Virus record (IMG/VR): IMGVR_UViG_3300009664_000002
Coordinates: 7,333 to 71,332 of that record
Origin: a virus
Lineage: Duplodnaviria > Caudoviricetes
Length of the DNA: 64,000 nucleotides
Direction: 5' to 3' (one strand)
Under the pieces are notes generated by a model. That model saw nothing but the letters and a program-made list of their open reading frames with translations, did not search any database and had not been told where the DNA came from. Position numbers and translations under genes: made by a program. Shown here piece after piece: positions 16,708 to 47,239 of this stretch (within the stretch, counting starts at the first letter, position 1; the number at the start of each line of letters is the position of its first letter).

Positions 16708-16780
16708 GTGTTAGTGGACTATTGGCTGTCCGTTCAGATTGTGGCTCTGAGTGATGGGGGTTCGATTCCCCTCTAACACC
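16708..16780 (+). tRNA. tRNA-His(GTG), no encoded G-1
   Basis: gtgttag/ctaacac acceptor, C73, tcaga-ttgtggc-tctga; base -1 is T. Confidence 0.93.
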
Positions 16781-16785
16781 AAAAT

Positions 16786-16856
16786 TGCTCTATGGTGTAA
16801 TGGTAACACGTCAGAATTTGACTCTGAAGATTTAGGTTCGATTCCTTATAGAGCAA
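16786..16856 (+). tRNA. tRNA-Gln(TTG)
   Basis: tgctcta/tagagca, tcaga-atttgac-tctga. Confidence 0.92.
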
Positions 16857-16860
16857 CAAA

Positions 16861-16975
16861 ATTATAATCTAAATGAATTCGGGTGAAAAGTAGTAAGTTG
16901 GTTAAATTCCAAGTTCAATTAAAATTATGAGAAATCTAGTAAGGTGGTTCGAATCCATTATATTTGGATTATAAT
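16861..16975 (+). ncRNA. tRNA-like RNA with 15-bp terminal stem and T-arm
   Basis: 16861-16875 pairs with 16961-16975; T-arm ggtgg-ttcgaat-ccatt; central ttgg-ttaaatt-ccaa hairpin. Confidence 0.5.
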
Positions 16976-16981
16976 TTTTAA

Positions 16982-17056
16982 CTAGGTGTTCCGCAGATGG
17001 CTATACGGACATGCATTGGAAGCATGTTTTCGGGAGTTCGAATCTCTCCACCTAGA
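16982..17056 (+). tRNA. tRNA-Pro(TGG), second copy
   Basis: ctaggtg/cacctag (C1:G72, A73), catgc-attggaa-gcatg. Confidence 0.88.
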
Positions 17057-17070
17057 CTAATTTTTTTATT

Positions 17071-17442
17071 ATGAAGTATAATTTATATTTAGATGATTTT
17101 AGAAATCCAAGTGATTCTGCATATTATTTAAAAAATAATATCTATTTGAAATTGGAATGGGTTGTAGTTAGAAATTATAATGAATTTGTAAAATGTATTG
17201 AAAAAAATGGAATTCCTGAAATTATTTCATTTGACCATGATTTAGCAGATATTCATTATGATTATCAAACAGATTTATTTTCAGAAAAAACTGGTTATGA
17301 TTGTGCTAAATGGTTTATTGATTATATTATTGATAATAATTTACAATTACCAAAAAAAATATTAATCCATTCAATGAATCTAGTTGGAAGTAAAAATATT
17401 AAATCTTTATTTGATAGTTATATTAAATCATTAGAAAATTAA
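17071..17442 (+). CDS. Cyclic-phosphate-processing receiver domain protein (RNA repair associated)
   Basis: LYLDDFRNP, WVVVRNYNEF, ISFDHDL, KTGYDCAKW and IHSMN motifs. Confidence 0.78.
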   Translation: MKYNLYLDDFRNPSDSAYYLKNNIYLKLEWVVVRNYNEFVKCIEKNGIPEIISFDHDLADIHYDYQTDLFSEKTGYDCAKWFIDYIIDNNLQLPKKILIHSMNLVGSKNIKSLFDSYIKSLEN

Positions 17443-17476
17443 TAAACTATTTATATTAAAATTTTTAATTGCTATA

Positions 17477-18382
17477 ATGAATTGTTTTAATATAATTACA
17501 GAAGAAATTATTGATTTTTTTGTTAATGAAACATATAATTCAATAAATGAATTAAAAAAATTATCAAATGATATTGTTTTAAAAATAGCAAAAAATAATA
17601 TTGATAATTTTAAAAATATAAAAAAACCATTTAAAATAGAAGGAATTTTATTAAGTGAAATTAATCCTTCAAACTATGTTGAATTATATAATTTTATTAC
17701 AAAATTTGAATTATTCATACAAATAAAACCAACCGATAAATCAAAAAAAGATAAAGGTGCTTATTTTAGAATAGTTCCGTCAAATAAAAATGCATTGAAA
17801 AAGATTGAAATTTATGTTAATGAAAATGATATTCAAGAAATATTTAATGAATTGAATAATACTACAAAAGAAATTAATCATAAAGATTTATATTTTCATC
17901 TATTTCATCTTATATATAAAACATTATTACATGAATTACAACATGCATTTGATGATTTTAGAAGTGATACTAAAATATTTCAAACAAAAAAAACAATTAA
18001 ATATCACGATGATATTGATAAAATAAAAGATAATGTAAAAAATATAATAACAAAAGATTCTATTTTATTCAGTAGATATTTAAACCTTCAACATGAAGTT
18101 TGGGCTAGATTCATTCAAGCAATAAATGATATTGAATTTGTTGACCTTATAATAGATGATGAATTGAGAGATATATTAGTAAAATTAAAACCATTAGAAA
18201 TTGTTGTAAAAAAATTCATTTCAAACTATTATGGATTTAGACCATTAAATAATAAAATAAAAAAGAAATTAATTAATAAAGTTGTACAATTTTGGCATTA
18301 TGAAAAAGAAAAATTCAATAATAATGAATATGTTTCTTATGATGAATATAAACGTCAAAATAAATTAGAAAAAATATTTTAG
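17477..18382 (+). CDS. HExxH zincin-like protein with N-terminal IITEEI motif
   Basis: LLHELQHAFDD plus downstream HEVWAR. Confidence 0.6.
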   Translation: MNCFNIITEEIIDFFVNETYNSINELKKLSNDIVLKIAKNNIDNFKNIKKPFKIEGILLSEINPSNYVELYNFITKFELFIQIKPTDKSKKDKGAYFRIVPSNKNALKKIEIYVNENDIQEIFNELNNTTKEINHKDLYFHLFHLIYKTLLHELQHAFDDFRSDTKIFQTKKTIKYHDDIDKIKDNVKNIITKDSILFSRYLNLQHEVWARFIQAINDIEFVDLIIDDELRDILVKLKPLEIVVKKFISNYYGFRPLNNKIKKKLINKVVQFWHYEKEKFNNNEYVSYDEYKRQNKLEKIF

Positions 18383-18400
18383 TTTTTTTTTTGTAGTTTA

Positions 18401-18427
18401 TGTAACATTTTATATCTTTGTATCGTA
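18401..18427 (+). promoter_or_regulatory. Overlapping ECF-like (TGTAAC-N17-CGTA) and TAnnTTTG promoters for leader 2
   Basis: tgtaacattttatatctttgtatcgta; near-identical to 30789-30815. Confidence 0.7.
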
Positions 18428-18455
18428 TTTATTGAAAATATAACAAATAATTATC

Positions 18456-18554
18456 ATGAAAAATTTACTCGACATACTATCATTAAATTTAGAAAGTGTT
18501 CTATTATGGGCGGTTAACGAAGATGATTTGTTAATTGATGTCGGGTTATATTAA
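18456..18554 (+). CDS. Attenuator leader peptide 2 (MKNLLDILSLNLESVLLWAVNEDDLLIDVGLY)
   Basis: 21 of 32 residues are L/D/E/V/A/W, matching the downstream tRNAs. Confidence 0.82.
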   Translation: MKNLLDILSLNLESVLLWAVNEDDLLIDVGLY

Positions 18555-18574
18555 AAATTTAATATATAAAAATG

Positions 18575-18606
18575 AAAAAACCCCGACAATGAAGTTGGGG
18601 TTTTTT
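18575..18606 (+). terminator. Attenuator terminator 2
   Basis: aaccccgac/gttggggtt hairpin with U-tract; 5' arm can pair with gtcgggtt at 18540-18547. Confidence 0.85.
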
Positions 18607-18616
18607 GTTCTTTGAA
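18607..18616 (+). promoter_or_regulatory. boxA-like GTTCTTTGAA
   Basis: Identical 10-mer at 19721 (before tmRNA) and 31030 (before tRNA cluster 4). Confidence 0.6.
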
Positions 18617-18636
18617 TGTTTGTAAATTTTTTATTG

Positions 18637-18708
18637 GGTCTTTGTAGTGTAATGGTTAGCATACCACACTGTCGATGTGGTGGCGGGGTTCGAATCCCAC
18701 AAAGACCG
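18637..18708 (+). tRNA. tRNA-Asp(GTC)
   Basis: ggtcttt/aaagacc, G73, ccaca-ctgtcga-tgtgg. Confidence 0.93.
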
Positions 18709-18715
18709 CAAATAT

Positions 18716-18787
18716 GTTCCCATCTTCTAAGGGTTAGGATATCACCCCTTCAAGGTGAAGATATGGGTTCAAATCCCATTGGGAATA
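18716..18787 (+). tRNA. tRNA-Glu(TTC), C at position 33
   Basis: gttccca/tgggaat, tcacc-ccttcaa-ggtga. Confidence 0.88.
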
Positions 18788-18794
18788 CAAACAT

Positions 18795-18865
18795 AGGAAA
18801 TTGGTGTAATGGTAGCGCATTTGGCTTACATCCAAAAAGAAATGGTTCGATTCCATTATTTCCTA
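18795..18865 (+). tRNA. tRNA-Val(TAC)
   Basis: aggaaat/atttcct, tttgg-cttacat-ccaaa. Confidence 0.9.
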
Positions 18866-18877
18866 CAATAAAAAAAA

Positions 18878-18965
18878 CCTCTTGTGGTGAAACTGGAATA
18901 CACGGTAGTCTTAGGAACTACTGCGAAGTAATAGTAGCATGTCGGTTCGAATCCGACCAAGAGGA
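18878..18965 (+). tRNA. tRNA-Leu(TAG)
   Basis: cctcttg/caagagg, gtagt-cttagga-actac, long variable arm. Confidence 0.92.
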
Positions 18966-18975
18966 CTGAATAAAT

Positions 18976-19049
18976 GGGGGTGCATGTACCAAGGCTGGCG
19001 AGAAACACTTGCAATGTTTCTGTGGTGGGTTCGTTTCCCATCATCTCCA
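18976..19049 (+). tRNA. tRNA-Ala(TGC)
   Basis: G3:U70 in gggggtg/catctcc, aaaca-cttgcaa-tgttt. Confidence 0.9.
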
Positions 19050-19082
19050 CAAAAATTATTACTATTTATTATAAAAAAAGAA

Positions 19083-19577
19083 ATGGAATATTTAAAATAT
19101 TTTTGGGGTTTTATGTTATTTGTTTTTATATCATATATTTCATTTGTTTGGATTAAATATGGTATACAACGTAGCATTTCTGATAGTTACTACAAATTAT
19201 CAAAAAAATTACAACCATTATTTGTCTTTTTTTGTTGGGGATTTGCATTTCCTGCAATAGTAATAGGTGTTACATTAACTGATAATTTTTTAATGTTTTT
19301 AGCGGGTACGGGTATTTGTTTCGTTGGTGCAGCAGCAGCATTTAAAGAAAATTTAACAAAAATTGTTCATATGATTGGTGCTTATGGTGGTGTGTTCTTT
19401 AGTCAATTATCAATTGCGTTAGATTTTAAAATGTTTTATGTTAATATTATTTTCATTACTATTGCAATAATATTTGAGATTTTATCCTATATGAAAAAAA
19501 TGAATAATAAAATTTGGTGGCAAGAAATTTTAGCATTTTTATCAATAGTCTTTGTTTTTTATTGTAATTTATTTTAA
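19083..19577 (+). CDS. Multi-pass membrane protein
   Basis: ATG at 19083 (MEYLKYFWG...); several hydrophobic helices; the longer track ORF overlaps tRNAs. Confidence 0.8.
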   Translation: MEYLKYFWGFMLFVFISYISFVWIKYGIQRSISDSYYKLSKKLQPLFVFFCWGFAFPAIVIGVTLTDNFLMFLAGTGICFVGAAAAFKENLTKIVHMIGAYGGVFFSQLSIALDFKMFYVNIIFITIAIIFEILSYMKKMNNKIWWQEILAFLSIVFVFYCNLF

Positions 19578-19584
19578 ACAAAAT

Positions 19585-19655
19585 ACGTCTTTGGTGTAAT
19601 GGTAGCATAAATCTCTCCAAAAGATTTGGTACTTGTTCGAATCGAGTAAGGCGTG
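19585..19655 (+). tRNA. tRNA-Trp(CCA)
   Basis: acgtctt/aaggcgt, G73, aatct-ctccaaa-agatt. Confidence 0.9.
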
Positions 19656-19742
19656 CAAAAAAAAATAAAAAATTTGTAACATTTTTTGGTTATTTACGTA
19701 AAAAGATATATATTTGAAAGGTTCTTTGAATTAATAGTATAT

Positions 19743-20096
19743 GGGGCATACAGGTTTTGATTATAAATTTGAGTAATGTGTAAGCAAGTAGTGATTGAAT
19801 TCTCACTAAAATAAGGTTCAAAACAATAAATGCAGAAGACTTAATGTCATTTCCAACTTCCATTACAATGGGAAGAAACACAATTGTAGAGAATATTGAA
19901 CTCGCAATTGCTGGTTAGGAAGCAGTAAATCAATAAAATCAATCAACTCATTCAAAGTTTGTCTATTCTTAAGAAATGTAAGATTGTAAAATTAGAATGT
20001 AAAAAATAGTCTATTTGTTGGTAAAAAAAACCAAATAAACTTGTAGAAAGCACAAAATTCTTTTATAAGACTTGGGTTCGATTCCCAAATGCTCCA
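19743..20096 (+). ncRNA. ssrA: tmRNA
   Basis: ggggcat...atgctcc-A acceptor with G3:U70, T-arm ttggg-ttcgatt-cccaa, resume context ataaat-GCA, tag ORF 19832-19918. Confidence 0.9.
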
Positions 20097-20121
20097 CTAA
20101 ATATTTAAAAAATAAAAAAAG

Positions 20122-20535
20122 ATGTCAGATTTTGAAAACTATAAAATAGATTTTGAAAACAATAAAATTCAAGAATTTATAAAAGAAATGAGAAAAAACG
20201 ATGGAATTTTAGAAAATCGTTTTTTTAAATTTGAAAAATATCTTGAAAATAATAGTTTTGATGATTTAATGCTTCGAATTATTGAAGAACACAATGATAA
20301 TTGGATTAATAATTGTTATTTGAAAAATTGTAAACCATATCCTAATAACAAACTATCATTTATTTTAGAATATGTTGAAAGAAAAGGTGAAAAAGTGATT
20401 GTTAATGAAATTAAATCAAATTTTGTAAATGAAATTTTTGAATTTAAAGGATATTATTTTCAATATATTTATGGTCAAGGTGTTTTAATAAAAATATATT
20501 TAAAAAAGAATTTAAAATTATTGTTATCTTTATAG
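20122..20535 (+). CDS. Hypothetical protein
   Basis: 137 aa ORF between tmRNA and tRNA-Leu. Confidence 0.7.
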   Translation: MSDFENYKIDFENNKIQEFIKEMRKNDGILENRFFKFEKYLENNSFDDLMLRIIEEHNDNWINNCYLKNCKPYPNNKLSFILEYVERKGEKVIVNEIKSNFVNEIFEFKGYYFQYIYGQGVLIKIYLKKNLKLLLSL

Positions 20536-20539
20536 ATAT

Positions 20540-20626
20540 GGCGAAGTGACGTAATTGGTAGCCGTGTTGGACTTAAAATCCAATGGTCAGTAATAGACCG
20601 TGTGGGTTCGAATCCCACCTTCGCTA
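20540..20626 (+). tRNA. tRNA-Leu(TAA)
   Basis: ggcgaag/cttcgct, ttgga-cttaaaa-tccaa, long variable arm. Confidence 0.93.
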
Positions 20627-20660
20627 CTTGGGTTCATCTTTCATTCGAAAGAAGGAAATA

Positions 20661-20698
20661 AAAAAAACGCAAACCAAAATGTTTAGCGTTTTTTTTTA
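20661..20698 (+). terminator. Intrinsic terminator after tRNA-Leu
   Basis: aaaacgcaaac...gtttagcgttttttt. Confidence 0.7.
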
Positions 20699-20718
20699 TT
20701 ATTTATTATAAAATTTTT

Positions 20719-20931
20719 ATGTTTGTGGAATTATTAGATTTAAAATATGGTGATGTAATAATGTTTTTATCATCAGATAAAACCAATCCAACGTTGGTTA
20801 TAAAAATATTTAGTATTGATGAAAACAAAATTATTGACTTTAATTCTAAGGAATATTTAACTATGGAAATAAAAGATAAGTATAATAAAGCATATATTTT
20901 AAACAGATGTAATGATGAATCAAAAGAATAA
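20719..20931 (+). CDS. Hypothetical protein
   Basis: 70 aa ORF. Confidence 0.55.
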   Translation: MFVELLDLKYGDVIMFLSSDKTNPTLVIKIFSIDENKIIDFNSKEYLTMEIKDKYNKAYILNRCNDESKE

Positions 20932-21229
20932 TATAAAAACAACCACAAATCGTAGTGAATTTAATAGAAAATACAAAAAATTTTTAGCAGATAGTGGTAA
21001 AATTAAATGTCGTTATTGTAAATATAATCAGGGTGAAAATAATAAAAATAAGTGGTATGGTGGAATAATAAAAAATATATTAGATTTATCTAACATAAAA
21101 TATCCAAATTGGAAATTGGTTTCTAAAAATCGTAAACAATGGATGAATAAAAAAACAAAATTTATTTTTAATAGAACAAAATTTGGTGATTTTTATTATG
21201 AAATAAAATTCAATAAAAAATATTTTTAA
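20912..21229 (+). CDS. Hypothetical basic protein with CxxC
   Basis: 105 aa ORF, IKCRYCKY. Confidence 0.6.
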   Translation: MMNQKNNIKTTTNRSEFNRKYKKFLADSGKIKCRYCKYNQGENNKNKWYGGIIKNILDLSNIKYPNWKLVSKNRKQWMNKKTKFIFNRTKFGDFYYEIKFNKKYF

Positions 21230-21660
21230 AAAATAATATAACAAACATTGGTTTTAAAATCAAATTCTAATTCTTGGATATAAATCGAATCATTAATTTT
21301 AAAATTATTATCTTCATTAATATGAAATTTCCAATCAATATCACTAATATTTTTTTTGTTTTCTTGTTCTAATTCATCTGTTTGTCTGTTGTAATATTCA
21401 AGCAAATAATAACCATTAATGTTTTTTATATCTATTCCAATATTTTCAATACCCATTCTATTAATCCAAAAATTAATACCCCAATTTATATTTATGTCAT
21501 ATTCATTAATATAAACATCAAAATCGGAAGTAAAACTACTATAATTATAAAATGAACATTTTGGTATTTTTTGGGTAAAATTAAATCTATCATCTGATAT
21601 TTCTAAACCTTCGTTTAAAAAATTTAAAATTTCACAATTGATTAATTTTTTAAATTTCAT
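21226..21660 (-). CDS. Hypothetical protein with N-terminal LINCEILNFLNE motif
   Basis: 144 aa ORF. Confidence 0.7.
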   Translation of the reverse strand: MKFKKLINCEILNFLNEGLEISDDRFNFTQKIPKCSFYNYSSFTSDFDVYINEYDININWGINFWINRMGIENIGIDIKNINGYYLLEYYNRQTDELEQENKKNISDIDWKFHINEDNNFKINDSIYIQELEFDFKTNVCYIIF

Positions 21661-21737
21661 AAATTCATATTTTTATAATAAATAGTTTGATTTTTATTGA
21701 AAATAAAATATCTTTGTTATTTAAATTTTTATAAAAA

Positions 21738-22241
21738 ATGCAAGAATATACATCAAAAAATTCTTCTATTAAACAAATACCATTTGGTTTTAAAATAGTT
21801 GATAAATATTTTGGTTGGAAACCAAATTCAATCAATTTAGACATTGGTGGTGGTAAATATGACTTATTTACAAATAAATTAAAAGAAAAAAGAGTAACAA
21901 ATTTAATTTATGACCCATTTAATAGAACAAAAGATTTTAATGAAAATTCATTAAATTATGCAACAAAATTTGGTGTTGATACTGTTACTATATTTAATGT
22001 TTTAAATGTAATTAAAGAATATGATATTCAAATAAGTATAATAAAATTAGGTTTTGATGTTTTAAAAAATAATGGAATGATTTTTATTCGTTCAACATAT
22101 AAAAACCCTAAAGGATATTCAACCGAAACAAAACCAGATGTCTTTCAACATTATTTAACAATGAATGATTATTTAAATATAACAAAAACAATATTTCCCA
22201 ACGCAATTTTAAAATACGGAATTATATATGGAATTAAATAA
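21738..22241 (+). CDS. Class I SAM-dependent methyltransferase
   Basis: NLDIGGGKYD motif I, IYDPFN, DTVTIFNVLNVI. Confidence 0.75.
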   Translation: MQEYTSKNSSIKQIPFGFKIVDKYFGWKPNSINLDIGGGKYDLFTNKLKEKRVTNLIYDPFNRTKDFNENSLNYATKFGVDTVTIFNVLNVIKEYDIQISIIKLGFDVLKNNGMIFIRSTYKNPKGYSTETKPDVFQHYLTMNDYLNITKTIFPNAILKYGIIYGIK

Positions 22242-23256
22242 AAATACTAATATTTTTGTTAATAAAAAATATTGGAAAAACATGAATGATAATGAAATTG
22301 AAAATTTTGTTAATGAAATTTTTATATATTATAGAAAAAATGGTTTTCCATATTATTCAACAACTGATGAATATAGAAAATCGGAATTTTCAAAGTTAAT
22401 AAATTTTAATTATGAAAATTTATGGTATGAAGACATTATTGGACAATCAATGCATGGTTTGGGACTGGCATGGTCATATTTTCCACATTCTTTTAATGTA
22501 AAATGTAATAATAAGATAACACCATATGAAGCATTTTTTGATGATAAAATTTTTAAAGATGTTATTCGTAAAAGATTAAAAATTGGTACTTATATTTCAG
22601 ATTCTGGAATCAGAAAAATGTTAAAAATTCATACTGGTGTTCAAGGTGTGTCTAATTTTAGACCAACTGCTGCTGCATGTATATATAAAAAATATGGAAA
22701 TGGTGGTACTGTTTGGGATATGTCAAGTGGGTGGGGTGGTCGTTTACTTGGTGCAATAATTAGTAATAATGTTAGTAAATACATTGGAACAGAACCATCA
22801 AAAAAAACATATGATGGATTATTTGAATTAGCAAAAGATTTTAGTGGTAATATGAAATATGAATTAAATTTATGTGGTAGTGAAGAATATATTCCACATA
22901 AAAATAGTTTAGATTTATGTTTTACATCACCACCATATTTTAATTTAGAAAAATATTCAAACGAACATACTCAAAGTTATTTAAAATACCCATTATTAGA
23001 TGATTGGATTGAAAATTTTTTAAAAAAAACAATAATAAATTGTTATCATGGATTGAAAAAAAATGGTTTTTTAATCATCAATATTTCAGATAATCCCAAA
23101 AATAATTTAAATCTTGAATTGAATACAATACAAATTGCAAATTTTATTGGTTTTAAACATATTGAAACAATAAAATTAACATTATCTAATGTTAATTTAC
23201 GTAATAAAAATAGTAAATATAAATATGAACCAATATTTGTTTTTAAAAAAAATTGA
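22228..23256 (+). CDS. Amino (N4-C/N6-A) DNA methyltransferase
   Basis: WDMSSGWGGRLLG SAM-binding motif and FTSPPYFNLEKY catalytic motif. Confidence 0.85.
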   Translation: MELNKNTNIFVNKKYWKNMNDNEIENFVNEIFIYYRKNGFPYYSTTDEYRKSEFSKLINFNYENLWYEDIIGQSMHGLGLAWSYFPHSFNVKCNNKITPYEAFFDDKIFKDVIRKRLKIGTYISDSGIRKMLKIHTGVQGVSNFRPTAAACIYKKYGNGGTVWDMSSGWGGRLLGAIISNNVSKYIGTEPSKKTYDGLFELAKDFSGNMKYELNLCGSEEYIPHKNSLDLCFTSPPYFNLEKYSNEHTQSYLKYPLLDDWIENFLKKTIINCYHGLKKNGFLIINISDNPKNNLNLELNTIQIANFIGFKHIETIKLTLSNVNLRNKNSKYKYEPIFVFKKN

Positions 23257-23308
23257 TTTTTTTGTAACAAAGTTTTAATATTTTCGTATTAAAAAAATAA
23301 AAAAGGAA

Positions 23309-24409
23309 ATGGATTATTTAAAAAAAATAGATTGGAATGTTTTAAATAATTATATTAATGATGGTTTAATTACAAAAAACAAGCATCCTGAATATGACAT
23401 TTGGGTATTAAATTATTCACCAAAAACTCAAGCAAAAGGTTTGTGGGATTTATATACATTATCGTGTAGAGGACTAATTATTGATATTGATGGTAATATA
23501 TTGGCAAGACCATTTCAAAAATTTAAAAATATTGAAGAACATGATGAATCAGAATTTGATTTAACACAAGATTTTGATATTTTTGAAAAATTAGATGGTT
23601 CTTTAATCATATTATTTTATTATAAATCACAAATGAAATGGATTGTTGCATCAAGAGGTTCTTTTATTTCTGAACAGTCAATTGAAGCAAAAAAAATGTT
23701 ATATAAAGATTTAAATTTATTTAAAAAACTTAATAAAAAATGTACTTATTTGTTTGAAATCATATATAAAAAAAATCGTATTGTTGTTGATTATGGTGAT
23801 ATGTATGATTTAATATTGTTGTCAAGAATTGAAACCAATACAAATTTTGAATTGTTTTATGATGACTTAGTTGATAAATATTCTAAAATATTTACTATTG
23901 TAAATAAAATAAATATTAAAATTAATAATATATATGAATTAAAACAATTAAATGAAAAAAATAAAGAAGGGTTTGTTGTTAGATTTTTTAATGGATTTAG
24001 AGTAAAAATAAAATTTGAAGAATACGTTAGATTACATGGTATTTTAACTAATGTTTCCAATATAATAATATGGGAACATTTAAAAAATAATTATGATTTT
24101 AATAAAATCTTTGATAAAATACCAGACGAATTTTATAATTGGATTGTAAAAACAAAAAAAGAAATAATTTCTGAATATAATGAAATCGAAAGAAACGCAT
24201 TAAAAGAATTTATAAAAATATTTCATATTAATAATATTAAAGAACGTAAATCATTTGCTTTAGAATCTTTAAAAACAAACTATTCTTCAATATTATTTAA
24301 ATTGTATGATAAAAAAGAATATAATTATATTATTTGGGATATGATTAAACCAAAATATTCAAAACCGTTTAATAATAATGATAATATTAATGATTTGAAT
24401 TTATTGTAG
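23309..24409 (+). CDS. RNA ligase, T4 Rnl1 (RnlA) family
   Basis: EKLDGSL adenylation motif I, CRGLI...ARPFQKF, EGFVV, VKIK. Confidence 0.88.
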   Translation: MDYLKKIDWNVLNNYINDGLITKNKHPEYDIWVLNYSPKTQAKGLWDLYTLSCRGLIIDIDGNILARPFQKFKNIEEHDESEFDLTQDFDIFEKLDGSLIILFYYKSQMKWIVASRGSFISEQSIEAKKMLYKDLNLFKKLNKKCTYLFEIIYKKNRIVVDYGDMYDLILLSRIETNTNFELFYDDLVDKYSKIFTIVNKINIKINNIYELKQLNEKNKEGFVVRFFNGFRVKIKFEEYVRLHGILTNVSNIIIWEHLKNNYDFNKIFDKIPDEFYNWIVKTKKEIISEYNEIERNALKEFIKIFHINNIKERKSFALESLKTNYSSILFKLYDKKEYNYIIWDMIKPKYSKPFNNNDNINDLNLL

Positions 24410-24450
24410 TTATATTTTAAACATTGAACACGTTTTAAAAAAAGAGAAAT

Positions 24451-24729
24451 ATGTTTGATATAGAAAATAGAAAATTAACGAATGAAGATATTAATGGTTT
24501 ATTAATTGATACCGAAAAAACAATAAATTTTTTAATTTATAGTTTAATTCATAAACCAACATTTAATGATGATGGATTTAAAGCAATTGTAAACATATTT
24601 AAATCAATGATTATAAATAATGCACTAAAAAACAATAAATTAATAATTAAAAACAAAGACGAATTTCTTGAAAATATTAAAACTGAAATTAATAAAATTG
24701 TAAAAATATATACTAATATTGAATTATAA
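24451..24729 (+). CDS. Small paralogous family protein (copy 1)
   Basis: Similar to 24719, 25172 and 25467. Confidence 0.7.
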   Translation: MFDIENRKLTNEDINGLLIDTEKTINFLIYSLIHKPTFNDDGFKAIVNIFKSMIINNALKNNKLIIKNKDEFLENIKTEINKIVKIYTNIEL

Positions 24730-25030: not shown

Positions 25031-25035
25031 ATAAA

Positions 25036-25167
25036 ATGGATGGTATAATAAATAAAAAATTTGAAAAGATTTATGAATTATTAATAGATATGGAAAACAA
25101 TTTTGTTGAAAACATTGAAGCAGAATTTAATAAAACTATAAAAATATATACAAATATTAAATTATAA
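25036..25167 (+). CDS. Short/truncated member of the paralog family
   Basis: MDGIINKKFEK...KTIKIYTNIKL shares its C-terminus with copy 1. Confidence 0.5.
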   Translation: MDGIINKKFEKIYELLIDMENNFVENIEAEFNKTIKIYTNIKL

Positions 25168-25171
25168 CATC

Positions 25172-25459: not shown

Positions 25460-25466
25460 ATAAAAA

Positions 25467-38293: not shown

Positions 38294-41200
38294 ATGTACG
38301 TAATTAATTCAAAAAGATTTAAAAAGAAAATATTACCAGAAATACCAAAAGGTTGTGCATTTGCAACAAAAATACATCCAAGATGGAACAAAAATAATAC
38401 TTATTATGGAACAAACAATTTTAAATTGGATTTTAGACCAAGTGGTTGTTTAGCAAGAATAACAATTTTTGAATCTTCTGAGTATTAGAACTATTCATAT
38501 TTAGGAAGTGAATTTGATATTTGGTTAAGAGGTACTTGGAATAATGCGAATGCACAAACACTTTGGAATAGTAATCTCTGGTTTTTTAAATGGGTTGGTA
38601 GTGGTGGTGGTGTTACTACATCATTTGCAACAAAAAATTGTGCATATTCAATTAGAGCATGTAAAACATATGAGGGTGAAGACGTTCCAGATGGAACTAT
38701 ATTTTCAAATGCATACACGGATGGGGATGGAAATAATTATAATGCCGTTAAAATAGGAACACAACTTTGGATAACAGAAAATTTAAAAACCACTAAATTT
38801 CAAGACGGAACACCTATTACTTTGGGTACTAGTGTTTCTGATTTTCAATATAATGATACAACACCATTATATACTTTTTATGAATATAATACCAAAGGTA
38901 CTACATATAAAGATGCTTATGGTGGTTTATATAATTGGTATTGTGTTAATAATAATATTGTTAGTGGTGATAGTTGGAATGTGTGTAGTGGAAATGATTT
39001 AAATACTTTAAAAGAATATTTAATAAACACTAAATGGCGTGATGAAGTAATAACAACCAATAACATTGGAAGATATGTTAGGTCTTGTAGACAAGTTGAC
39101 CATCCGTTAGACATATATTTTAAAACTACATGGAATATACCAAGTAGTGGTTATAGTTTTACATATCCCGTAGCATCATATGAAGATGGTAATTATAACT
39201 ATTCAATTGATTGGGGTGATAATACAGAAGTTGAAGATTATTATGATGATACACCACCAACTCACATATATGAAAAAGCGGGTAATTATACAATCAAAGT
39301 AAGTGGTTCTTTACCTAGATTTGCCATTGCTAATGGTAGCATGAAATCACTATTGCTTGGTGTAGAAAATTGGGGCGATGTTGGATTCAAATCAATGGCA
39401 TACATGTTCCAAGGTGTTACAAATAATATAGAAATACCCAATACCCTGACTGGACATAAAGATGTAACTAGTATGGAAGGTATGTTTTTTAGTGCAACTA
39501 CTTTTAATGGGGATATATCTAATTGGGATGTTAGTAATATAACTAATATGAAATATATGTTTAGAAATTCATCATTCAATCAGGATATTGGTAGTTGGAA
39601 TGTTAGCAAAGTAACTAACATGGATGCTATGTTTTATGGAACACCTTTTAATCAAGATATTGGTAATTGGAATGTAAGTAAAGTAACTAACATGAGTAAT
39701 ATGTTTTATAATGCATCTAATTTTAATCAAGATATTGGCAATTGGAATGTTGGTAATGTTACAAATATGACTTGTATGTTTATGTATTCTTATGAATTTA
39801 ATCAAGACATTGGTAATTGGAATGTAAGTAAAGTAACTAACATGAGTAATATGTTTTATAATGCATCTAATTTTAATCAAGATATTGGCAATTGGAATGT
39901 TAGTAATGTAACTAATATGGCTCAAACTTTTCGTCTTGCTCAAAGTTTCAATCAAGATATTGGTAATTGGAATGTAAGTAAAGTAACTAACATGAGTAAT
40001 ATGTTTTATAATGCATCTAATTTTAATCAAGATATTGGCAATTGGAATGTTAGTAATGTAACTAATATGAGTTATATGTTTCGTTACGCTACTAATTTTA
40101 ATCAAAATATTGGCAATTGGAATGTTGGTAATGTTACTAATATGACAGCAATGTTTTATAAAGCAAACAAATTCAATCAAGATTTATCATTTTGGTGTGT
40201 AAGTAATATTGCAACCAAACCAACAGATTTTGATGGTCTTGCAAGTTCTTGGACATTACCTAATTCACGTCCTATTTGGGGTACATGTCCTGATAAAAAT
40301 GATTTTGTTACTAAATGGAAAATACCTAACAGTGAATATACATTTACATTCCCAGCAGCACAATATGAAGGTGGTGTTTATGATTATTGGATTAATTGGG
40401 GGGATGGTACTGAAATTGAACACATAACAGGAAATACAGCACCAACGCATGTATATGCATATTCTGGTAATTGTTATATTAGAGTAAGTGGTTCTTTGCC
40501 AAGATTTGCTATTGATAATGGTAGTATGAAATCATTGCTACTTGGTGTTATTACTTGGGGTAACGTTGGATTTAAATCAATGGCAAACATGTTCCGAGGT
40601 ATTACCAATAATATAACCATACCCAATGAATTAACTGGTCATGAAGATGTTACTGATATGACTAATATGTTTTCTTCCGCTATTATTTTTAATCGGGATA
40701 TTAGTGGTTGGGATGTTAGTAATGTTACTAATATGAGTGGTATGTTTAGTTTTACTGTTGATTTTAACCAAGATATTAGTGGTTGGGATGTTAGTAATGT
40801 AACAGGAATGTCTTATATGTTTTATGAAGCAGAAGATTTTAATCAAGATTTATATTGGTGGTGTGTAAAAAAAATATCATCAAAACCTGGTGGTTTTGAT
40901 GATATTGCAACTTCTTGGATTTTACCACGACCACAATGGGGTACTTGTCCAAGTAAAAAAGATTTGTTTATTACTTCTTGGAGTTTACCAACATCACCAC
41001 CATATGATAATTCAATAGCATTTCCAGTTAAATCATATTTTGGTGGAAATTACGATTATTGGATTGATTGGGGGGATGGTACAATAGAATATTTTGATGA
41101 TGATACACAACCAACACATACATATAGTATTATAAACGATTATCAAATAACTATAAGAGGTAGTTTACCACATATTCGTAACTTATCTGACCCAAGATTT

Positions 41201-42115
41201 CTTGGTGTTGATAATTGGGGTGATATAAAATTACAAACAATGGAAGGGATGTTTGCTGAAAATATAGGAAGTAATTTTTATTTACCTAAAACATTAACAG
41301 GTCATCAGGATGTTACAGATATGAGTTATATGTTTGTAGAATGTTATGAGTTTAATCAAGATATTGGTAATTGGGATGTTAGTAATGTTACTAATATGGA
41401 TGGAATGTTTGCTAAGTGTGAAAGTTTCAATCAGGATTTATCTTGGTGGTGTGTAACTAATATTTCTACAAAACCTCTTGATTTTGATTATGGTTGTATT
41501 TCTTGGATATTACCTCAACCTGATTGGGGTAATTGTCCAGAAGAAAATGTTTTTAAAACAACATGGAATATTCCAACCAATAAATTTAATTTAACTTTTC
41601 CTATAGTATCTCGTGGTAGATATGATTATTATATTAATTGGGGGGATGGTAGTCCTGATGAATATTATAATGATGATACACCACCAGAACATGGTTATCA
41701 TGATTTAGGTATATATACAATTCGTGTTTGGGGTAAGTTAACTGATATTGTTGCCGATGAATATTCTCAAGGTGATTTATTACTTGGGGTTGATAATTGG
41801 GGTGATGTTGATTTTAGAACTATGAAATTTATGTTCAAAAATACGGGTGATATATATTTACCCAATAATTTAACGGGTCATGATAGGGTAGAAAGTATGG
41901 AAGGTATGTTTTTAAATTCTGAATTTAATGCTGATATTTCTAATTGGGATGTAAGTAATATAACTAATATGGATTTTATGTTTAGTGGTGCTACTAATTT
42001 CAATCAAGATTTATCTGGTTGGTGTGTAGAAAATATTACAAGAGAACCAAGGGATTTTTATAATGGTTCAATTTGGCATCCTAGTTTACAACCACAATGG
42101 GGTGAACCTTGTTAG
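38294..42115 (+). CDS. FISUMP + PKD-like + DUF285/BspA repeat protein; one reading frame interrupted by a single TAG at 38486-38488
   Basis: 38294 and 38822 are in frame. DGDGNNYNAVKIGTQLWITENL and YGGLYNWY (FISUMP) lie between or near them; IDWGDG PKD-like modules and FNQDIGNWNVSKVTNM repeats follow. Confidence 0.8.
39500..40190 (+). repeat. 78-bp (26-aa) DUF285/BspA leucine-rich tandem repeats
   Basis: aatcaagatattggcaattggaatgt...aatatg units, several exactly duplicated. Confidence 0.92.
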
Positions 42116-43202: not shown

Positions 43203-44216
43203 ATGGGTGGTAAAGCGTTAAACAAATTTGGTGTTTATACTGAAAGAAAAAATAGTAAAGAATTTAGAAAAATTAGAAATGAAATTCAAAATATTCTTAA
43301 TACTAAACTTCAGTTAATATCAAAAAGTGTATTATTTTATAAGACCAAATCAAATCATGGTGATTTGGATTTGTTAATAAAAATTCCAAAGGGTTTTCAT
43401 ATTAAATGGTATGATTTCATAAAAAAAACATTCCAACCCAATGGAATTTATTCAAACGGTAATGTTTATTCTTTTGATTACGATAATTTTCAAATAGATT
43501 TTATTTTAATAAAAGAAGAATATTGGGAAATTGCTCAAATTTATTTTGCATATGACCCATTAGGAAATATTATGGGTAAAACATTTCATAAATTTGGTTT
43601 ATCGTATGGATGGAAAGGACTATATTATAAATATAGAAATCATGATGGAATCAACATAAAAGATATTCTAATCACAAGAAATCCACAAAAAATTTTTGAA
43701 TTTGGTGGGTATGATTTTGAAAGATTTATTGTTTCAGGTTTTGATTATCTTGAAGAAATTTTTGAATATTGTATTAATAGTAAATATTTTAGTTCGGATA
43801 TTTTTCAATTTAATAATTTAAAAACAATTGATAAAAAAAGAAATAGAAAAAGAAATTCATATAAAAAGTTTTTAGAATATATTAATAATAAAAATATTAA
43901 TAAATTATATTCTTTTAATAAAGATAAAAATTTTTATATTGAAATGATTAATGATTTTTTCCCTGAATCAAATTTAATTGATATTTTAAAAATTTTGGAT
44001 TTAGAGTGCGAAAAAAAGAAAACCATTTCCAATAAATTTAATGGTAATATTGTAATGGAATGGTTGCCCGAATTAAAGGGTGTTGAACTTGGTAGAATTA
44101 TTTCATTATTTAAAAAATCATTTATTGAATCATATGATGATTACATTTTAAAAACAGAAATTAGTAAAATAAAAGAAGATTTTTTTAAAATTTATGACAA
44201 AAATAAAAGAAAATAA
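43203..44216 (+). CDS. Nucleotidyltransferase-like protein
   Basis: HGDLDLL (GDxD) and FQIDFI acidic motifs; C-terminal GNIVMEWLPELKGVELG. Confidence 0.62.
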   Translation: MGGKALNKFGVYTERKNSKEFRKIRNEIQNILNTKLQLISKSVLFYKTKSNHGDLDLLIKIPKGFHIKWYDFIKKTFQPNGIYSNGNVYSFDYDNFQIDFILIKEEYWEIAQIYFAYDPLGNIMGKTFHKFGLSYGWKGLYYKYRNHDGINIKDILITRNPQKIFEFGGYDFERFIVSGFDYLEEIFEYCINSKYFSSDIFQFNNLKTIDKKRNRKRNSYKKFLEYINNKNINKLYSFNKDKNFYIEMINDFFPESNLIDILKILDLECEKKKTISNKFNGNIVMEWLPELKGVELGRIISLFKKSFIESYDDYILKTEISKIKEDFFKIYDKNKRK

Positions 44217-45069
44217 TAATACATTAACATTAGGAAGTAATCAACTAAATGTTGAAAATTGGAATGTTTATCATCCAAATGGTAAACATATGTTTACTTG
44301 TGGTGAAAATAGGGCTAATTGGTATTTAAAAAGAAATCTTGCAATAATTTTTGATAAAAATAAGATAAAATTAACATTTACCCCTAAAGGATATGGTTTT
44401 TCTGATAATGAAATGTTTGGTAGAACTAATAGGGAAATAAAGTGTGTTGTTTCTGGGAAAACAGAAGAACTCCAAAGACATCATATTGTTCCATATTGTT
44501 TTAGAAAGCATTTTCCCGATAAATTTAAGTCAAAAAATCATCATGATGTTGTTTTAATTAATCGTGAGATTCATAATGAATACGAAAAACATGCAGATGA
44601 ATTTAAAAATAAAATAATAAATGATTTTAAATTAAAGACAATTAAAACATTTAATAATGAATATACAAAAAAACTAAAAGAAGAAACTAAAGATTCTTTT
44701 ATTATTTTAAATAATATACAATCAATTCTAAAGAGAAATGTAAATATGCCAAATAATCTTAAAATAAATAAACTAAAATTAATTTCAAATAAAATAGGAA
44801 TTGGTTTTGATTTTTTGGTTAAATTAAATTACATTCAATTTTTAAAACTTTATCTTCTTATAAAAAAATACCATACAGAAAAAATTAAAAATTTTAAAAA
44901 AAGAAATAAAAACAAATATGATTATGGTTTTCATGTTATAAATAAACTTAAAACAGATAGTGATATTATGAATTTTATAAAAAAATGGAGAATTCACTTT
45001 CTTGAAACTATGAAACCCAAATACATGCCAAAAGGTTGGTCTGTTGATTTTAGAATAAAAACCAAATAA
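44194..45069 (+). CDS. HNH-like protein resembling the EXD2 C-terminal domain
   Basis: CVVSG...RHHIVPYCFRKHFP...NHHDVVL...H. Confidence 0.7.
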   Translation: MTKIKENNNTLTLGSNQLNVENWNVYHPNGKHMFTCGENRANWYLKRNLAIIFDKNKIKLTFTPKGYGFSDNEMFGRTNREIKCVVSGKTEELQRHHIVPYCFRKHFPDKFKSKNHHDVVLINREIHNEYEKHADEFKNKIINDFKLKTIKTFNNEYTKKLKEETKDSFIILNNIQSILKRNVNMPNNLKINKLKLISNKIGIGFDFLVKLNYIQFLKLYLLIKKYHTEKIKNFKKRNKNKYDYGFHVINKLKTDSDIMNFIKKWRIHFLETMKPKYMPKGWSVDFRIKTK

Positions 45070-45334
45070 TTTGTTTAATTTGAATTATTGAATTAAATTT
45101 GTAATTATTTTTTTATTTTTAAATATGATAAAATATTTATATTTGTTGGGTTTTATTAAATTTAAAACTATGTATTCAAATTCTAATAAAGAATATAAAA
45201 TTATTATAAATAATAAAAAAAGAAATTACTTAAATTTTTCATTACATAAAATTTTTGATACAATAAGCACTTATATTATTTATAAGAAAACAATCTTTTT
45301 TTAAGAAAAAAATAACAATTAAATATGTAAAACT

Positions 45335-46396
45335 ATGATTAATCATTCAGCACTTTTAGATTTTGACGATATTCTTATTGTTCCTAAAACAAAAACATCA
45401 ATTGAAAGTAGATATTCTGGTATTTCACTACCATCCAAATTACCATTATTCACTGCACCAATGGACACGGTTGTTGATTTAAATAACATGGAAGTTTTCG
45501 AAAAAAATAAAATTAATGTTGTTTTACCTAGAACCATAAATTATACCCAATATATAAATCATAGGGCATTTAAAACAACCTCAAACGTTTTTATTAGTAT
45601 GGGTTTTGATGATTTAAATTCTTTTGAAGAAAAAGAATTTAACATACTTCCAAATAATCCATATATTCTAATTGATGTAGCAAATGGACATATGGAAAAA
45701 ATAGTAAAATATGCAAAAACAATAAAAAAACAAAAACCCAATGCAATAATTATGGTTGGGAATATTGCAAATCCTGAAACATATAAATGGTATTTTGAAA
45801 GTAATTGTGTTGATTATATTCGTTTAGGAATTGGAAATGGAAATGGGTGTTTAACAACTAAACAATCTGGTATTGGATATCCAATGGCATCATTAATTCA
45901 TAACACATATAAAATAAAAAAAGATTTAATGAAAAAAGAACCAAATATTAATCCACCAAAAATAGTTGCAGATGGTGGAATGAAAAATTATTCTGATATT
46001 GTTAAAGCATTAGCATTAGGTGCTGATTATGTTATGCTTGGTAGTATTTTTAATAAAGCACTTGAAAGTTGTGGTAATAATTATCTTTATAATATTAAAA
46101 TAAATAAAAATACTGCAAAAAGACTTTTTCATTTAGGTTTTCCTGTAAAAAAATATTTTAGAGGAATGAGTACAAAAGAAGCACAAAAAGCAATGGGAAA
46201 ATCAAACTTAAAAACATCTGAAGGTGTTGTTAGATATAGAAAAATTGAATACCTTTTAAATACTTGGGTTGAAAATTTTGAACATTATTTAAGAAATGCC
46301 ATGAGTTATTCAAATGCTAAAACATTAGATGATTTTATTGGTAAAGCAGAAATATCCATAATTACAGAAAATGCATATAAAAGATTTAATAAATAA
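45335..46396 (+). CDS. GMP reductase/IMPDH family protein
   Basis: LDFDDIL, TAPMDTV, IDVANGH, GIGNGNGCLTT, ADGG, FRGMST, SEG. Confidence 0.88.
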   Translation: MINHSALLDFDDILIVPKTKTSIESRYSGISLPSKLPLFTAPMDTVVDLNNMEVFEKNKINVVLPRTINYTQYINHRAFKTTSNVFISMGFDDLNSFEEKEFNILPNNPYILIDVANGHMEKIVKYAKTIKKQKPNAIIMVGNIANPETYKWYFESNCVDYIRLGIGNGNGCLTTKQSGIGYPMASLIHNTYKIKKDLMKKEPNINPPKIVADGGMKNYSDIVKALALGADYVMLGSIFNKALESCGNNYLYNIKINKNTAKRLFHLGFPVKKYFRGMSTKEAQKAMGKSNLKTSEGVVRYRKIEYLLNTWVENFEHYLRNAMSYSNAKTLDDFIGKAEISIITENAYKRFNK

Positions 46397-46408
46397 AAAA
46401 GAATAACC

Positions 46409-47239
46409 ATGAAATTTGAAACAATTGCCGATTGGTGCAAATGGCTAGAAAAAAATTTCAGTAATGAAATTATGATACCAACATTACCTGTTATTATTAG
46501 ATTAGATGGTAATAATTTTCATAATTGGACTAAAGGATTAGAAAGACCTTTTGATTTAAAATTAATTGAATTAATGACTGAAACAACCAAATTTTTAGTT
46601 CAGGAAACAAATGCCGTTGTTGGTTATACACAAAGTGATGAAATTACATTAATTTTATATTCAAACGATAAAAATTCTTTAATTTATAACGATGGTAAAA
46701 AACAAAAAATAGTTTCAAAACTTACTGCAAAATGTGTTAATTTTTTTAATGAAAAAAGAAAAGAATTATTACCAAAACATAATAAAACAGCAATTTTTGA
46801 TTGTAGAATTTATCAAACAGCAACATTACATGATGCTTGTATTCAATTACTTTGGCGTGAAAATGATGCGATTAGAAACAGTATTTCAATGTTAGCACAA
46901 AGTTTATTTTCACACAAAGAGTTACAAAATTTAAATACAACTGAAATTCAAAATAAAATGATGTTAGAAAAGGGTGTAAATTGGTCTAATTTAAACAGTA
47001 AGTTAAAAAGGGGTACGTATGTTAAACGAATTAAAACATCTAAACCTTTTACTAAAGAAGAATTAAAAAACTTACCACCGTTGCATCAAGCCCATAAAAA
47101 TCCAGATTTGGTTATTGAACGTTCAGTTATTAAAGAAATTGAATATCCAATATTCAATACAATAAAAAATAAAATAGATGTTATTTTCTTTGATAAAGAA
47201 CCATTAACTGAAATTATTCATATGGATTTATGTAAATAA
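46409..47239 (+). CDS. thg1: tRNA-His guanylyltransferase (Thg1/TLP family 3'-5' polymerase)
   Basis: IIRLDGNNFH, YTQSDEITL, FDCR, WRENDAIRNS, FSHKELQN, KRG motifs. Confidence 0.92.
   Translation: MKFETIADWCKWLEKNFSNEIMIPTLPVIIRLDGNNFHNWTKGLERPFDLKLIELMTETTKFLVQETNAVVGYTQSDEITLILYSNDKNSLIYNDGKKQKIVSKLTAKCVNFFNEKRKELLPKHNKTAIFDCRIYQTATLHDACIQLLWRENDAIRNSISMLAQSLFSHKELQNLNTTEIQNKMMLEKGVNWSNLNSKLKRGTYVKRIKTSKPFTKEELKNLPPLHQAHKNPDLVIERSVIKEIEYPIFNTIKNKIDVIFFDKEPLTEIIHMDLCK

What the first reader, a model, noticed from the sequence alone, without database searches (positions are those of the whole stretch)
16708..47239. tRNA-His lacks G-1 while the same genome encodes Thg1
tRNA-His starts G1-T2-G3 with T at -1 and C73, so the HisRS identity element G-1 is not encoded. 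A clear Thg1-family gene lies at 46409-47239. Established: bacterial Thg1-like proteins add G-1 opposite C73 by 3'-5' templated polymerization and can repair 5'-truncated tRNAs. Inference: a matched phage enzyme-substrate pair.
Basis: partly seen in the sequence, partly recalled or inferred. Interest (0 to 1): 0.7.

Follow-up and report, generated by a model that had tools for sequence, protein, structure and literature searches.

The report
Phage tRNA-His without G-1, plus TLP
A large uncultured phage carries a histidine tRNA gene that lacks the extra 5' G needed for charging and, 30 kb away, an enzyme that could add it, but across phages the two features do not travel together, so the enzyme is best read as a general tRNA-end repair enzyme that may also finish this tRNA.

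Summary
Both observations are real. tRNA-His (16708-16780) has a 7-bp acceptor stem, T at -1 and C73, so G-1 is not encoded. ORF 46409-47239 is a bacterial-type Thg1-like protein (TLP) with intact catalytic residues.

The "matched pair" reading is only partly supported. The chemistry fits: the B. thuringiensis TLP adds G-1 opposite C73. The comparative evidence shows no coupling.
- Close TLP homologues (65-83% identity) occur in phage contigs that encode G-1, and in complete phages with no tRNA-His.
- They also occur in Bacteroidota chromosomes whose tRNA-His encodes G-1.
- In two unbiased IMG/VR samples, about a quarter to a third of phage tRNA-His genes lack G-1.
- Thg1 was present in 3/16 contigs with a C73, G-1-less tRNA-His and in 7/55 of the rest (p = 0.68).
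- Four complete 166-373-kb phages carry such a tRNA but no Thg1.

The window's tRNA-His belongs to a conserved lineage seen in 12 contigs. It shows compensatory changes and always abuts tRNA-Pro.

The window also encodes a T4 Rnl1-like RNA ligase. This fits a general tRNA 5'-end repair role for the TLP, with G-1 addition to this tRNA as a likely but unproven extra.

The scan reached the same verdict before on another phage (e1-5327234).

The parts
16629..16706 (+). tRNA-Pro(TGG), including its encoded C74. It abuts tRNA-His with a single T (16707) between them.
   Evidence: ARAGORN; Rfam 53.2 bits. The same Pro-then-His junction with a 'CT' spacer occurs in 11 related contigs.
16708..16780 (+). 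tRNA-His(GTG) with a 7-bp acceptor stem, C73, T at -1 and no encoded G-1.
   Evidence: It belongs to a conserved lineage in which 4 of 5 anticodon-stem pairs show compensatory changes.
46409..47239 (+). Thg1-like protein (bacterial TLP type), 276 aa, a predicted 3'-5' nucleotidyltransferase.
   Evidence: Pfam PF04446 at 88.6 bits. BtTLP 4KGK at E 2.8e-35, against about 1e-7 for eukaryal Thg1. D33, D77 and E78 are invariant in 30 homologues.
23309..24409 (+). T4 Rnl1-like RNA ligase lying between tRNA clusters. It gives context for an RNA-repair reading of the TLP.
   Evidence: Pfam PF09511 at 70 bits.

Best explanation
The window is a fragment of a T4-like jumbo phage (23.6% GC). It carries a set of about 22 tRNAs, a tmRNA, an Rnl1-type RNA ligase and a bacterial-type Thg1-like protein. 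Its tRNA-His belongs to a conserved phage lineage that directly follows tRNA-Pro and does not encode G-1. With U at -1 and no -1:73 pair, host RNase P should cut at -1/+1 and leave a 5'-monophosphate G+1 (inferred). The TLP has an intact active site and is most likely a general tRNA 5'-end repair and maintenance enzyme: it activates a 5'-monophosphate end with ATP or GTP and adds Watson-Crick templated nucleotides in the 3'-5' direction. Because this tRNA has C73, the same chemistry can add G-1 and so create the HisRS identity element. That step is plausible here, but it is a side use of the enzyme. It is not the reason the gene is kept, and the two genes are not a co-evolved pair.
For: The tRNA register is agreed by ARAGORN and Infernal. 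The TLP is assigned by Pfam, by its match to the solved BtTLP, by invariant D33/D77/E78 and by a BtTLP-like 'NSISM' in place of the eukaryal HINNLYN motif (D30/D75 of BtTLP in PMC3701042). BtTLP adds G-1 to C73 tRNA-His but prefers 5'-truncated tRNAs of any kind (PMC3061083). TLP homologues at 65-83% identity lie in 26 phage contigs with unrelated flanks. Those contigs have mixed tRNA-His states: no G-1 in G000, G015b and G007, and encoded G-1 in G015a, G013, G018 and G008. Complete G016 and G017 have no tRNA-His. Thirteen of 13 bacterial MAGs (mostly Bacteroidota) with a 67-82% identical TLP have a tRNA-His with encoded G-1/C73. Two that I checked hold the TLP in a housekeeping context. Viral and bacterial TLPs are intermixed in the tree. 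In the census, Thg1 was found in 3/16 contigs with a C73 G-1-less tRNA-His and in 7/55 others (p = 0.68). 16 of 22 window tRNAs have T at -1. G-1-encoding phage genes instead show 'ATG' just before G+1, which puts U just 5' of the expected RNase P site in both classes (U-2 rule in PMC3245924). The window also encodes an RNA ligase.
Against: Nothing here measures activity or the mature 5' end. The record is only 24% complete, so a second, canonical tRNA-His may exist elsewhere in the genome, as it does in relatives. All 22 window tRNAs have fully paired acceptor stems, so no built-in need for 5' repair is visible. What damages tRNA 5' ends during infection is unknown. When Thg1-selected contigs are added, a weak excess of C73 G-1-less tRNA-His appears in Thg1+ lineages (7/24 against 4-5 of 36-37, p = 0.10-0.19), so a mild link is not excluded.
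Confidence: 0.6

Rival explanations
1. Dedicated matched pair: the phage keeps the TLP mainly to add G-1 opposite C73 of its own tRNA-His, which would otherwise be uncharged.
For: Both parts lie in one genome, C73 allows templated addition, and no phage HisRS was found. Complete phages G015 and G007 also combine a G-1-less C73 tRNA-His with Thg1, as does a second lineage (L121/L164/L172). Every G-1-less tRNA-His seen in the close-TLP contigs and in the unbiased samples' Thg1+ contigs has C73. The TLP is rare in Bacteroidota genomes (1 of 300 sampled), so a host-supplied enzyme is unlikely.
Against: No statistical association was found (p = 0.68-1.0). Thg1 is present in phages with only G-1-encoding tRNA-His or with none. 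Complete genomes G066, G074, G460, G463 and the DTR-bounded G091 carry a C73 G-1-less tRNA-His without Thg1. One member of the same tRNA lineage (L243) has G at -1. The Thg1+ contigs G402 and G409 hold G-1-less tRNA-His genes with U73 and A73.
Confidence: 0.15
2. The tRNA-His works, or is tolerated, without G-1 and the TLP never acts on it. The host HisRS would rely on C73 and the anticodon, or the tRNA would be a weakly charged supplement.
For: G-1-less C73 tRNA-His genes are frequent in phages that have no Thg1, including four complete 166-373-kb genomes. Some route without a phage TLP must therefore exist, or the loss is tolerated. Bacteria and eukaryotes with G-1-independent HisRS are known (PMC3245924, PMC4338351).
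Against: The known G-1-independent bacterial systems use A73, not C73 (PMC3245924). BtTLP adds G-1 to C73 tRNA-His as efficiently as yeast Thg1 does, so an active TLP in the same cell would be expected to modify it.
Confidence: 0.2
3. The tRNA-His gene is decaying or a decoy, or the register is wrong and G16708 is really G-1.
For: It has the second-lowest Rfam tRNA score in the window (37.6 bits) and a 3-bp D stem. It is the only window tRNA without an encoded C74.
Against: Nine lineage members keep the cloverleaf, with double compensatory changes in 4 of 5 anticodon-stem pairs. The shifted register breaks U8, the 7:66 pair and the T stem. The G015 orthologue has C73-C74 in the ARAGORN register.
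Confidence: 0.05

Closest known systems
Bacillus thuringiensis Thg1-like protein (BtTLP; PDB 4KGK/4KGM; PMC3701042, PMC3061083)
   Same: Best solved relative (E 2.8e-35 over residues 10-205). It shares the catalytic Asp/Asp/Glu and the NSISM motif. Close chromosomal homologues of the phage TLP, like BtTLP, sit in bacteria that already encode G-1.
   Different: The phage protein has a roughly 70-residue C-terminal part that does not align to BtTLP. It is phage-borne and belongs to a tight subfamily shared with sporadic Bacteroidota. Its activity is untested.
Archaeal TLPs in species whose tRNA-His gene lacks G-1, and Dictyostelium DdiTLP2 on mitochondrial tRNA-His (PMC3245924, PMC5041481)
   Same: A G-1-less tRNA-His gene and a TLP in one genome. 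For the archaeal C73 cases, G-1 is added by templated 3'-5' addition after normal RNase P cleavage.
   Different: In archaea the presence of Thg1 tracks the absence of encoded G-1 (PMC3245924). In phages I found no such tracking.
Annotated phage Thg1 genes (201phi2-1, XacN1, Bc431v3, Caulobacter and Erwinia jumbo phages; PMC7824862, PMC5852040, PMC3601020)
   Same: Thg1/TLP genes in large, often tRNA-rich phages, 158 GenBank phage records in all. They are discussed as tRNA 5'-end restoration within RNA-repair toolkits.
   Different: They are only 32-47% identical to this protein. None of the three papers I read links the enzyme to a G-1-less phage tRNA-His.
Alphaproteobacterial G-1-less tRNA-His (Caulobacter type)
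   Same: G-1 is not encoded.
   Different: That type has A73 and a co-evolved HisRS. This tRNA has C73 and no phage HisRS was found.

Membership tests
Thg1/TLP 3'-5' nucleotidyltransferase superfamily (Pfam PF04446) | Thg1 palm domain above the curated threshold | tested here: met
   88.6 bits against a cut-off of 29.2, residues 18-136; 90.3 bits in the genome search.
Thg1/TLP 3'-5' nucleotidyltransferase superfamily (Pfam PF04446) | Two metal-binding Asp plus the adjacent Glu (BtTLP D30, D75, E76) | tested here: met
   D33, D77 and E78 align to these residues and are invariant in 30 homologues. The BtTLP residues come from PMC3701042.
Bacterial/archaeal TLP subgroup (as against eukaryal Thg1) | Closer to TLPs than to eukaryal Thg1, and lacking the eukaryal HINNLYN motif | tested here: met
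   BtTLP E 2.8e-35 against Candida, yeast and human Thg1 at 5e-8 to 6e-6. The query has RNSISM where Candida Thg1 has HINNLYN and BtTLP has KNSISM.
Bacterial/archaeal TLP subgroup (as against eukaryal Thg1) | Templated 3'-5' addition, with G-1 added opposite C73 | not testable with these tools
   Needs enzyme assays. Known for BtTLP.
Canonical bacterial tRNA-His | Genomically encoded G-1 paired with C73 (8-bp acceptor helix), with U at -2 | tested here: not met
   T at -1 (16707), which cannot pair with C73.
Canonical bacterial tRNA-His | GUG anticodon and C73 discriminator | tested here: met
Post-transcriptional G-1 system (G-1-less tRNA-His dependent on a genome-encoded Thg1/TLP, as in some archaea) | Both components present in one genome | tested here: met
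   the two genes lie 29.6 kb apart on the same strand.
Post-transcriptional G-1 system (G-1-less tRNA-His dependent on a genome-encoded Thg1/TLP, as in some archaea) | Thg1 presence tracks the absence of encoded G-1 across related genomes | tested here: not met
   3/16 against 7/55 contigs, p = 0.68. In complete genomes 1/5 against 4/25, p = 1.0. States are mixed among the close-TLP contigs.
Alphaproteobacterial-type G-1-less tRNA-His | A73 discriminator with an adapted HisRS | tested here: not met
   C73. No HisRS in G000 or in four relatives.

The most novel reading that the evidence does not exclude
G-1-less, C73 tRNA-His genes form a distinct and widespread class of phage tRNA, roughly 10-15% of phage tRNA-His genes. 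They are often kept beside a canonical G-1-encoding paralogue and are built with U-1 for RNase P cleavage at +1. Under this reading their maturation or charging follows a route not yet described. It would be TLP-dependent where the phage has one. Elsewhere it would be an unknown enzyme, a G-1-independent use, or a conditional tRNA that works only in the infected cell.
Probability: 0.15. Interest if true: 0.6.

Novelty: new member of a known kind. Interest (0 to 1): 0.3.

Why it matters
G-1 is the main identity element of tRNA-His, and bacteria are said to encode it almost without exception. This phage tRNA, and many others, break that rule while keeping C73. That raises a concrete and testable question: how are such tRNAs charged? 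For this window the practical message is caution. A Thg1 annotation next to a G-1-less tRNA-His looks like a neat self-contained system, but comparative data do not show that the two genes depend on each other. The TLP subfamily is notable in its own right, because it is highly conserved and moves between jumbo phages and a few Bacteroidota chromosomes.

Tried and rejected
- **BLAST of the tRNA-His against 30 Thg1-bearing contigs** found only one orthologue. I therefore built a covariance model. MAFFT alignments of diverse tRNA-His genes were mis-registered, so the model rests on three sequences with a hand-given structure.
- **Shifted registers** that would make G16708 a G-1, or read C72-C73-A74 as CCA, were rejected. 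They break U8, the 7:66 pair and the T stem.
- **A mitochondrial-style 5'-editing role** was rejected, because all 22 tRNAs have paired 1:72 to 3:70.
- **A phage HisRS adapted to G-1-less tRNA** was not found in G000 or in four relatives.
- **A CCA-adding enzyme** was not found in the 71-kb record.
- **A host-supplied TLP as a general explanation** is weakened, since only 1 of 300 sampled Bacteroidota genomes has Thg1.
- **Gene neighbourhood** was uninformative. The flanks of Thg1 are not conserved among 26 contigs, and the neighbours in the window have no tRNA-related Pfam hits.
- **Ten contigs sharing the orthologous tRNA-His** lack Thg1, but nine are only 6-27% complete and so say little.
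- **The Rnl1/Thg1 co-occurrence** (p = 0.03) disappears when restricted to genomes of at least 200 kb (p = 0.41).
Full report
**What the window is.** The window is 64 kb of a 71-kb IMG/VR virus record that CheckV rates 24% complete. It has 23.6% GC. It encodes a T4-like portal, a large terminase, a ribonucleotide reductase with an intein, and a T4 Rnl1-like RNA ligase. It also holds 22 ARAGORN tRNAs and a tmRNA (Rfam confirms 21 tRNAs and the tmRNA at 73.1 bits). It is a fragment of a large, tRNA-rich phage.

**Observation: the tRNA.** tRNA-His(GTG) lies at 16708-16780.
- ARAGORN and the Rfam tRNA model agree on the register: G1-C72 through G7-C66, U8, A14, GTG at 34-36 and C73 at 16780.
- Position -1 (16707) is T. 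It is the only base between this gene and the C74 of the preceding tRNA-Pro.
- A register that makes G16708 a G-1 would need a U:U pair at 7:66, a 4-bp T stem and no U8, so I reject it.
- No second tRNA-His exists in the record.

**Observation: the enzyme.** ORF 46409-47239 matches Pfam Thg1 at 88.6 bits.
- Its best solved relative is the B. thuringiensis Thg1-like protein (4KGK, E 2.8e-35). Eukaryal Thg1 enzymes score only 5e-8 to 6e-6.
- D33, D77 and E78 align with the catalytic D30, D75 and E76 of BtTLP (PMC3701042). They are invariant in 30 homologues.
- The eukaryal HINNLYN motif is replaced by the BtTLP-like NSISM.
- Both halves of the observation are therefore confirmed, and the enzyme is a bacterial-type TLP.

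**Is the background chemistry right?** Yes. BtTLP adds G-1 to C73 tRNA-His with kcat/KM 5500 M-1 s-1, equal to yeast Thg1. It repairs 5'-truncated tRNAs of any identity 5- to 160-fold better (PMC3061083).

**Relatives of the TLP.**
- More than 120 protein clusters are 75-83% identical to it.
- IMG/VR holds 25 contigs with 65-83% identical copies. None of the genes flanking Thg1 in the window is detectable beside them, apart from a distant IMPDH-like gene in four. The gene therefore moves among otherwise dissimilar phages.
- Copies at 67-82% identity occur in 13 GTDB MAGs, mostly Bacteroidota. In Raineya the gene lies between ValRS and SurA-like genes, and in Sediminibacterium beside arginine-synthesis genes.
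- In a maximum-likelihood tree the viral and MAG copies are intermixed, with at least four switches forced by well-supported branches. One complete 340-kb phage copy is sister to the Raineya chromosomal copy.
- The family is nevertheless rare in the phylum: 1 of 300 sampled Bacteroidota genomes has it.

**tRNA-His state where this TLP occurs.**
- All 13 MAGs have a tRNA-His with G at -1 and C73.
- Among the phage contigs with the close TLP, G-1 is missing in the window, in one of two genes of complete G015 (82% identical to the window's tRNA), and in complete G007.
- G-1 is encoded in the other G015 gene and in G013 (two genes), G018 and G008. It is also encoded in more distant Thg1+ contigs G024-G026 and G030.
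- G016 (91% complete) and G017 (100% complete) have Thg1 and only three tRNAs each, none of them His.
- In a further 41 diverse Thg1+ contigs, 12 had a detectable tRNA-His. Three held a C73 G-1-less copy, each beside a canonical one, and six had only G-1-encoding copies. The other three were G-1-less with U73 (G402), G-1-less with A73 (G409), and of ambiguous register (G420).

**The window's tRNA-His lineage.**
- Pattern scans found 11 more contigs with the same acceptor and T arm.
- In every one the gene directly follows tRNA-Pro in a Pro-His-Gln array. It has T at -1 after a 'CT' spacer in 10 of the 11.
- In L243 the identical tRNA follows 'ATATG', so G-1 is encoded there.
- At least six contigs (G015, L236, L239, L242, L244, L245) also carry a canonical G-1-encoding tRNA-His paralogue.
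- Nine members keep the cloverleaf, and 4 of 5 anticodon-stem pairs show double compensatory changes. These are working tRNAs, not debris.
- None of the ten new contigs has Thg1, but nine are only 6-27% complete. The exception is G091, which is 41 kb with terminal repeats and lacks Thg1.

**Unbiased census.** I drew two samples of phage tRNA-His genes from IMG/VR using anticodon-loop plus T-loop patterns that ignore position -1.

| Class (ARAGORN calls) | Sample 1 | Sample 2 |
|---|---|---|
| G-1 / C73 | 42 | 50 |
| G-1 / A73 | 4 | 2 |
| No G-1, C73 (mis-registered calls removed) | 9 | 10 |
| No G-1, A73 or T73 | about 16 | 9 |

Many of the canonical calls in sample 2 are host genes at provirus ends. 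I then searched contigs of at least 40 kb for PF04446. Thg1+ fractions and Fisher tests are below.

| Comparison | Group 1 | Group 2 | p |
|---|---|---|---|
| C73 G-1-less contigs vs all others | 3/16 | 7/55 | 0.68 |
| Any G-1-less vs G-1-encoding | 3/25 | 7/46 | 1.0 |
| Same as row 1, genomes at least 90% complete | 1/5 | 4/25 | 1.0 |

- Complete phages G066 (166 kb), G074 (167 kb), G460 (361 kb) and G463 (373 kb) have a C73 G-1-less tRNA-His and no Thg1.
- Adding the Thg1-selected contigs gives a weak, non-significant excess: 7/24 against 4-5 of 36-37, p = 0.10-0.19. That comparison is biased, because all tRNA-His genes of the large Thg1+ contigs were inspected.

**How it most likely works.**
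- 16 of the 22 window tRNAs have T at -1. G-1-encoding phage genes typically show 'ATG' before G+1, while G-1-less C73 genes show 'CT'. In both classes U therefore lies just 5' of the expected RNase P site, which matches the known positive determinant (PMC3245924).
- I infer that RNase P leaves this tRNA with a 5'-monophosphate G+1.
- The TLP can then activate that end and add G opposite C73. The host HisRS would use the result, since no phage HisRS was found.
- That step is chemically expected but not shown.
- The distribution of the gene argues that selection keeps it for a broader job. The proposed role of bacterial TLPs is repair or quality control of tRNA 5' ends, which includes restoring G-1 after mis-cleavage (PMC3061083, PMC3245924).
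- This fits the Rnl1-type ligase in the window. It also fits Rnl1 being present in 11/24 complete Thg1+ phages against 4/25 Thg1- phages, although genome size confounds that contrast.

**Comparison with what is known, and novelty.**
- Phage Thg1 genes are widely annotated: 158 GenBank phage records and papers PMC7824862, PMC5852040 and PMC3601020.
- I found no paper that ties them to a G-1-less phage tRNA-His.
- This scan reached the same verdict earlier on a soil phage (e1-5327234).
- The item is therefore a new member of a known kind.
- The more interesting residue is general. A sizeable share of phage tRNA-His genes lack G-1 while keeping C73, mostly without any phage TLP, and how they are charged is unexplained.

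**Caveats.**
- Most contigs are fragments, so 'no Thg1' is firm only for complete genomes.
- Lineage counts were made by eye from the tRNA sequences.
- The tRNA-His covariance model was built from three sequences and may miss divergent genes.
- The host is unknown. Bacteroidota is an inference from the TLP relatives.

Noticed in passing
window 16629-32375 (all tRNA genes): Twenty-one of 22 tRNAs have N73 followed by an encoded C74 and then A or T, never a full CCA. This is in a 23.6% GC genome, where C is rare. tRNA-His is the only exception (C73 followed by AAAA). It may be a shared 3'-processing signal.
   Followed up: partly
IMG/VR samples L120-L199 and L386-L465: About a quarter to a third of phage tRNA-His genes lack G at -1. 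One group has C73 and G1 and usually abuts an upstream tRNA with a 'CT' spacer. Another has A73 with encoded CCA, resembling the alphaproteobacterial type. G-1-encoding genes are nearly always preceded by 'ATG'.
   Followed up: partly
L236, L239, L240, L242-L245 (related phage contigs): The tRNA arrays are doubled isoacceptor by isoacceptor (Pro-His-Pro-His-Gln-Gln-Gln-Asp-Asp-Glu-Glu-Val-Val...). One tRNA-His copy is canonical and the other is divergent and G-1-less. The window keeps a single-copy version of the array, with only the divergent tRNA-His.
   Followed up: partly
window 23309-24409 (+): A T4 Rnl1-like RNA ligase (PF09511, 70 bits) lies between tRNA clusters. No PNK or CCA-adding enzyme was seen in the parts I scanned.
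   Followed up: partly
window 35929-36780 (+) and 45335-46396 (+): The first ORF has the N-terminal domain of dATP/dGTP diphosphohydrolase (PF18909, 100 bits); from memory this is the MazZ type linked to modified-purine phage genomes. An IMPDH/GMP-reductase-family gene sits directly upstream of the TLP. Together they may indicate purine-pool remodelling.
   Followed up: no
window 27091-30417 (+): The ribonucleotide reductase large subunit is interrupted by an intein (PF14890).
   Followed up: no
window 19743-20099 (+): A phage-encoded tmRNA (Rfam RF00023, 73.1 bits; ARAGORN predicts a tag peptide) lies inside the tRNA region.
   Followed up: partly
window 38822-42115 (+): A 1097-aa protein with six DUF285 repeats (540 bits) and a PKD domain; possibly a surface or host-binding protein.
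   Followed up: no
L044:2195-2278 (-) in complete phage G007: A tRNA-His with a class II-like long variable arm, T at -1 and C73, in a Thg1+ phage.
   Followed up: no
L070 (G042:C33, Lutibacter MAG): A tRNA-His with T at -1 and encoded C73-CCA sits in a MAG that also has a canonical tRNA-His (L096) and low-coverage Thg1 contigs. It is probably a phage contig binned with the MAG.
   Followed up: no
L034/L037 (G015), L045 (G013), L107 (G027), L173, L192: Suppressor-like tRNAs (anticodons TTA and CTA) occur in the tRNA arrays of several related jumbo phages, which hints at stop-codon recoding in some of them. None is present in the window.
   Followed up: no
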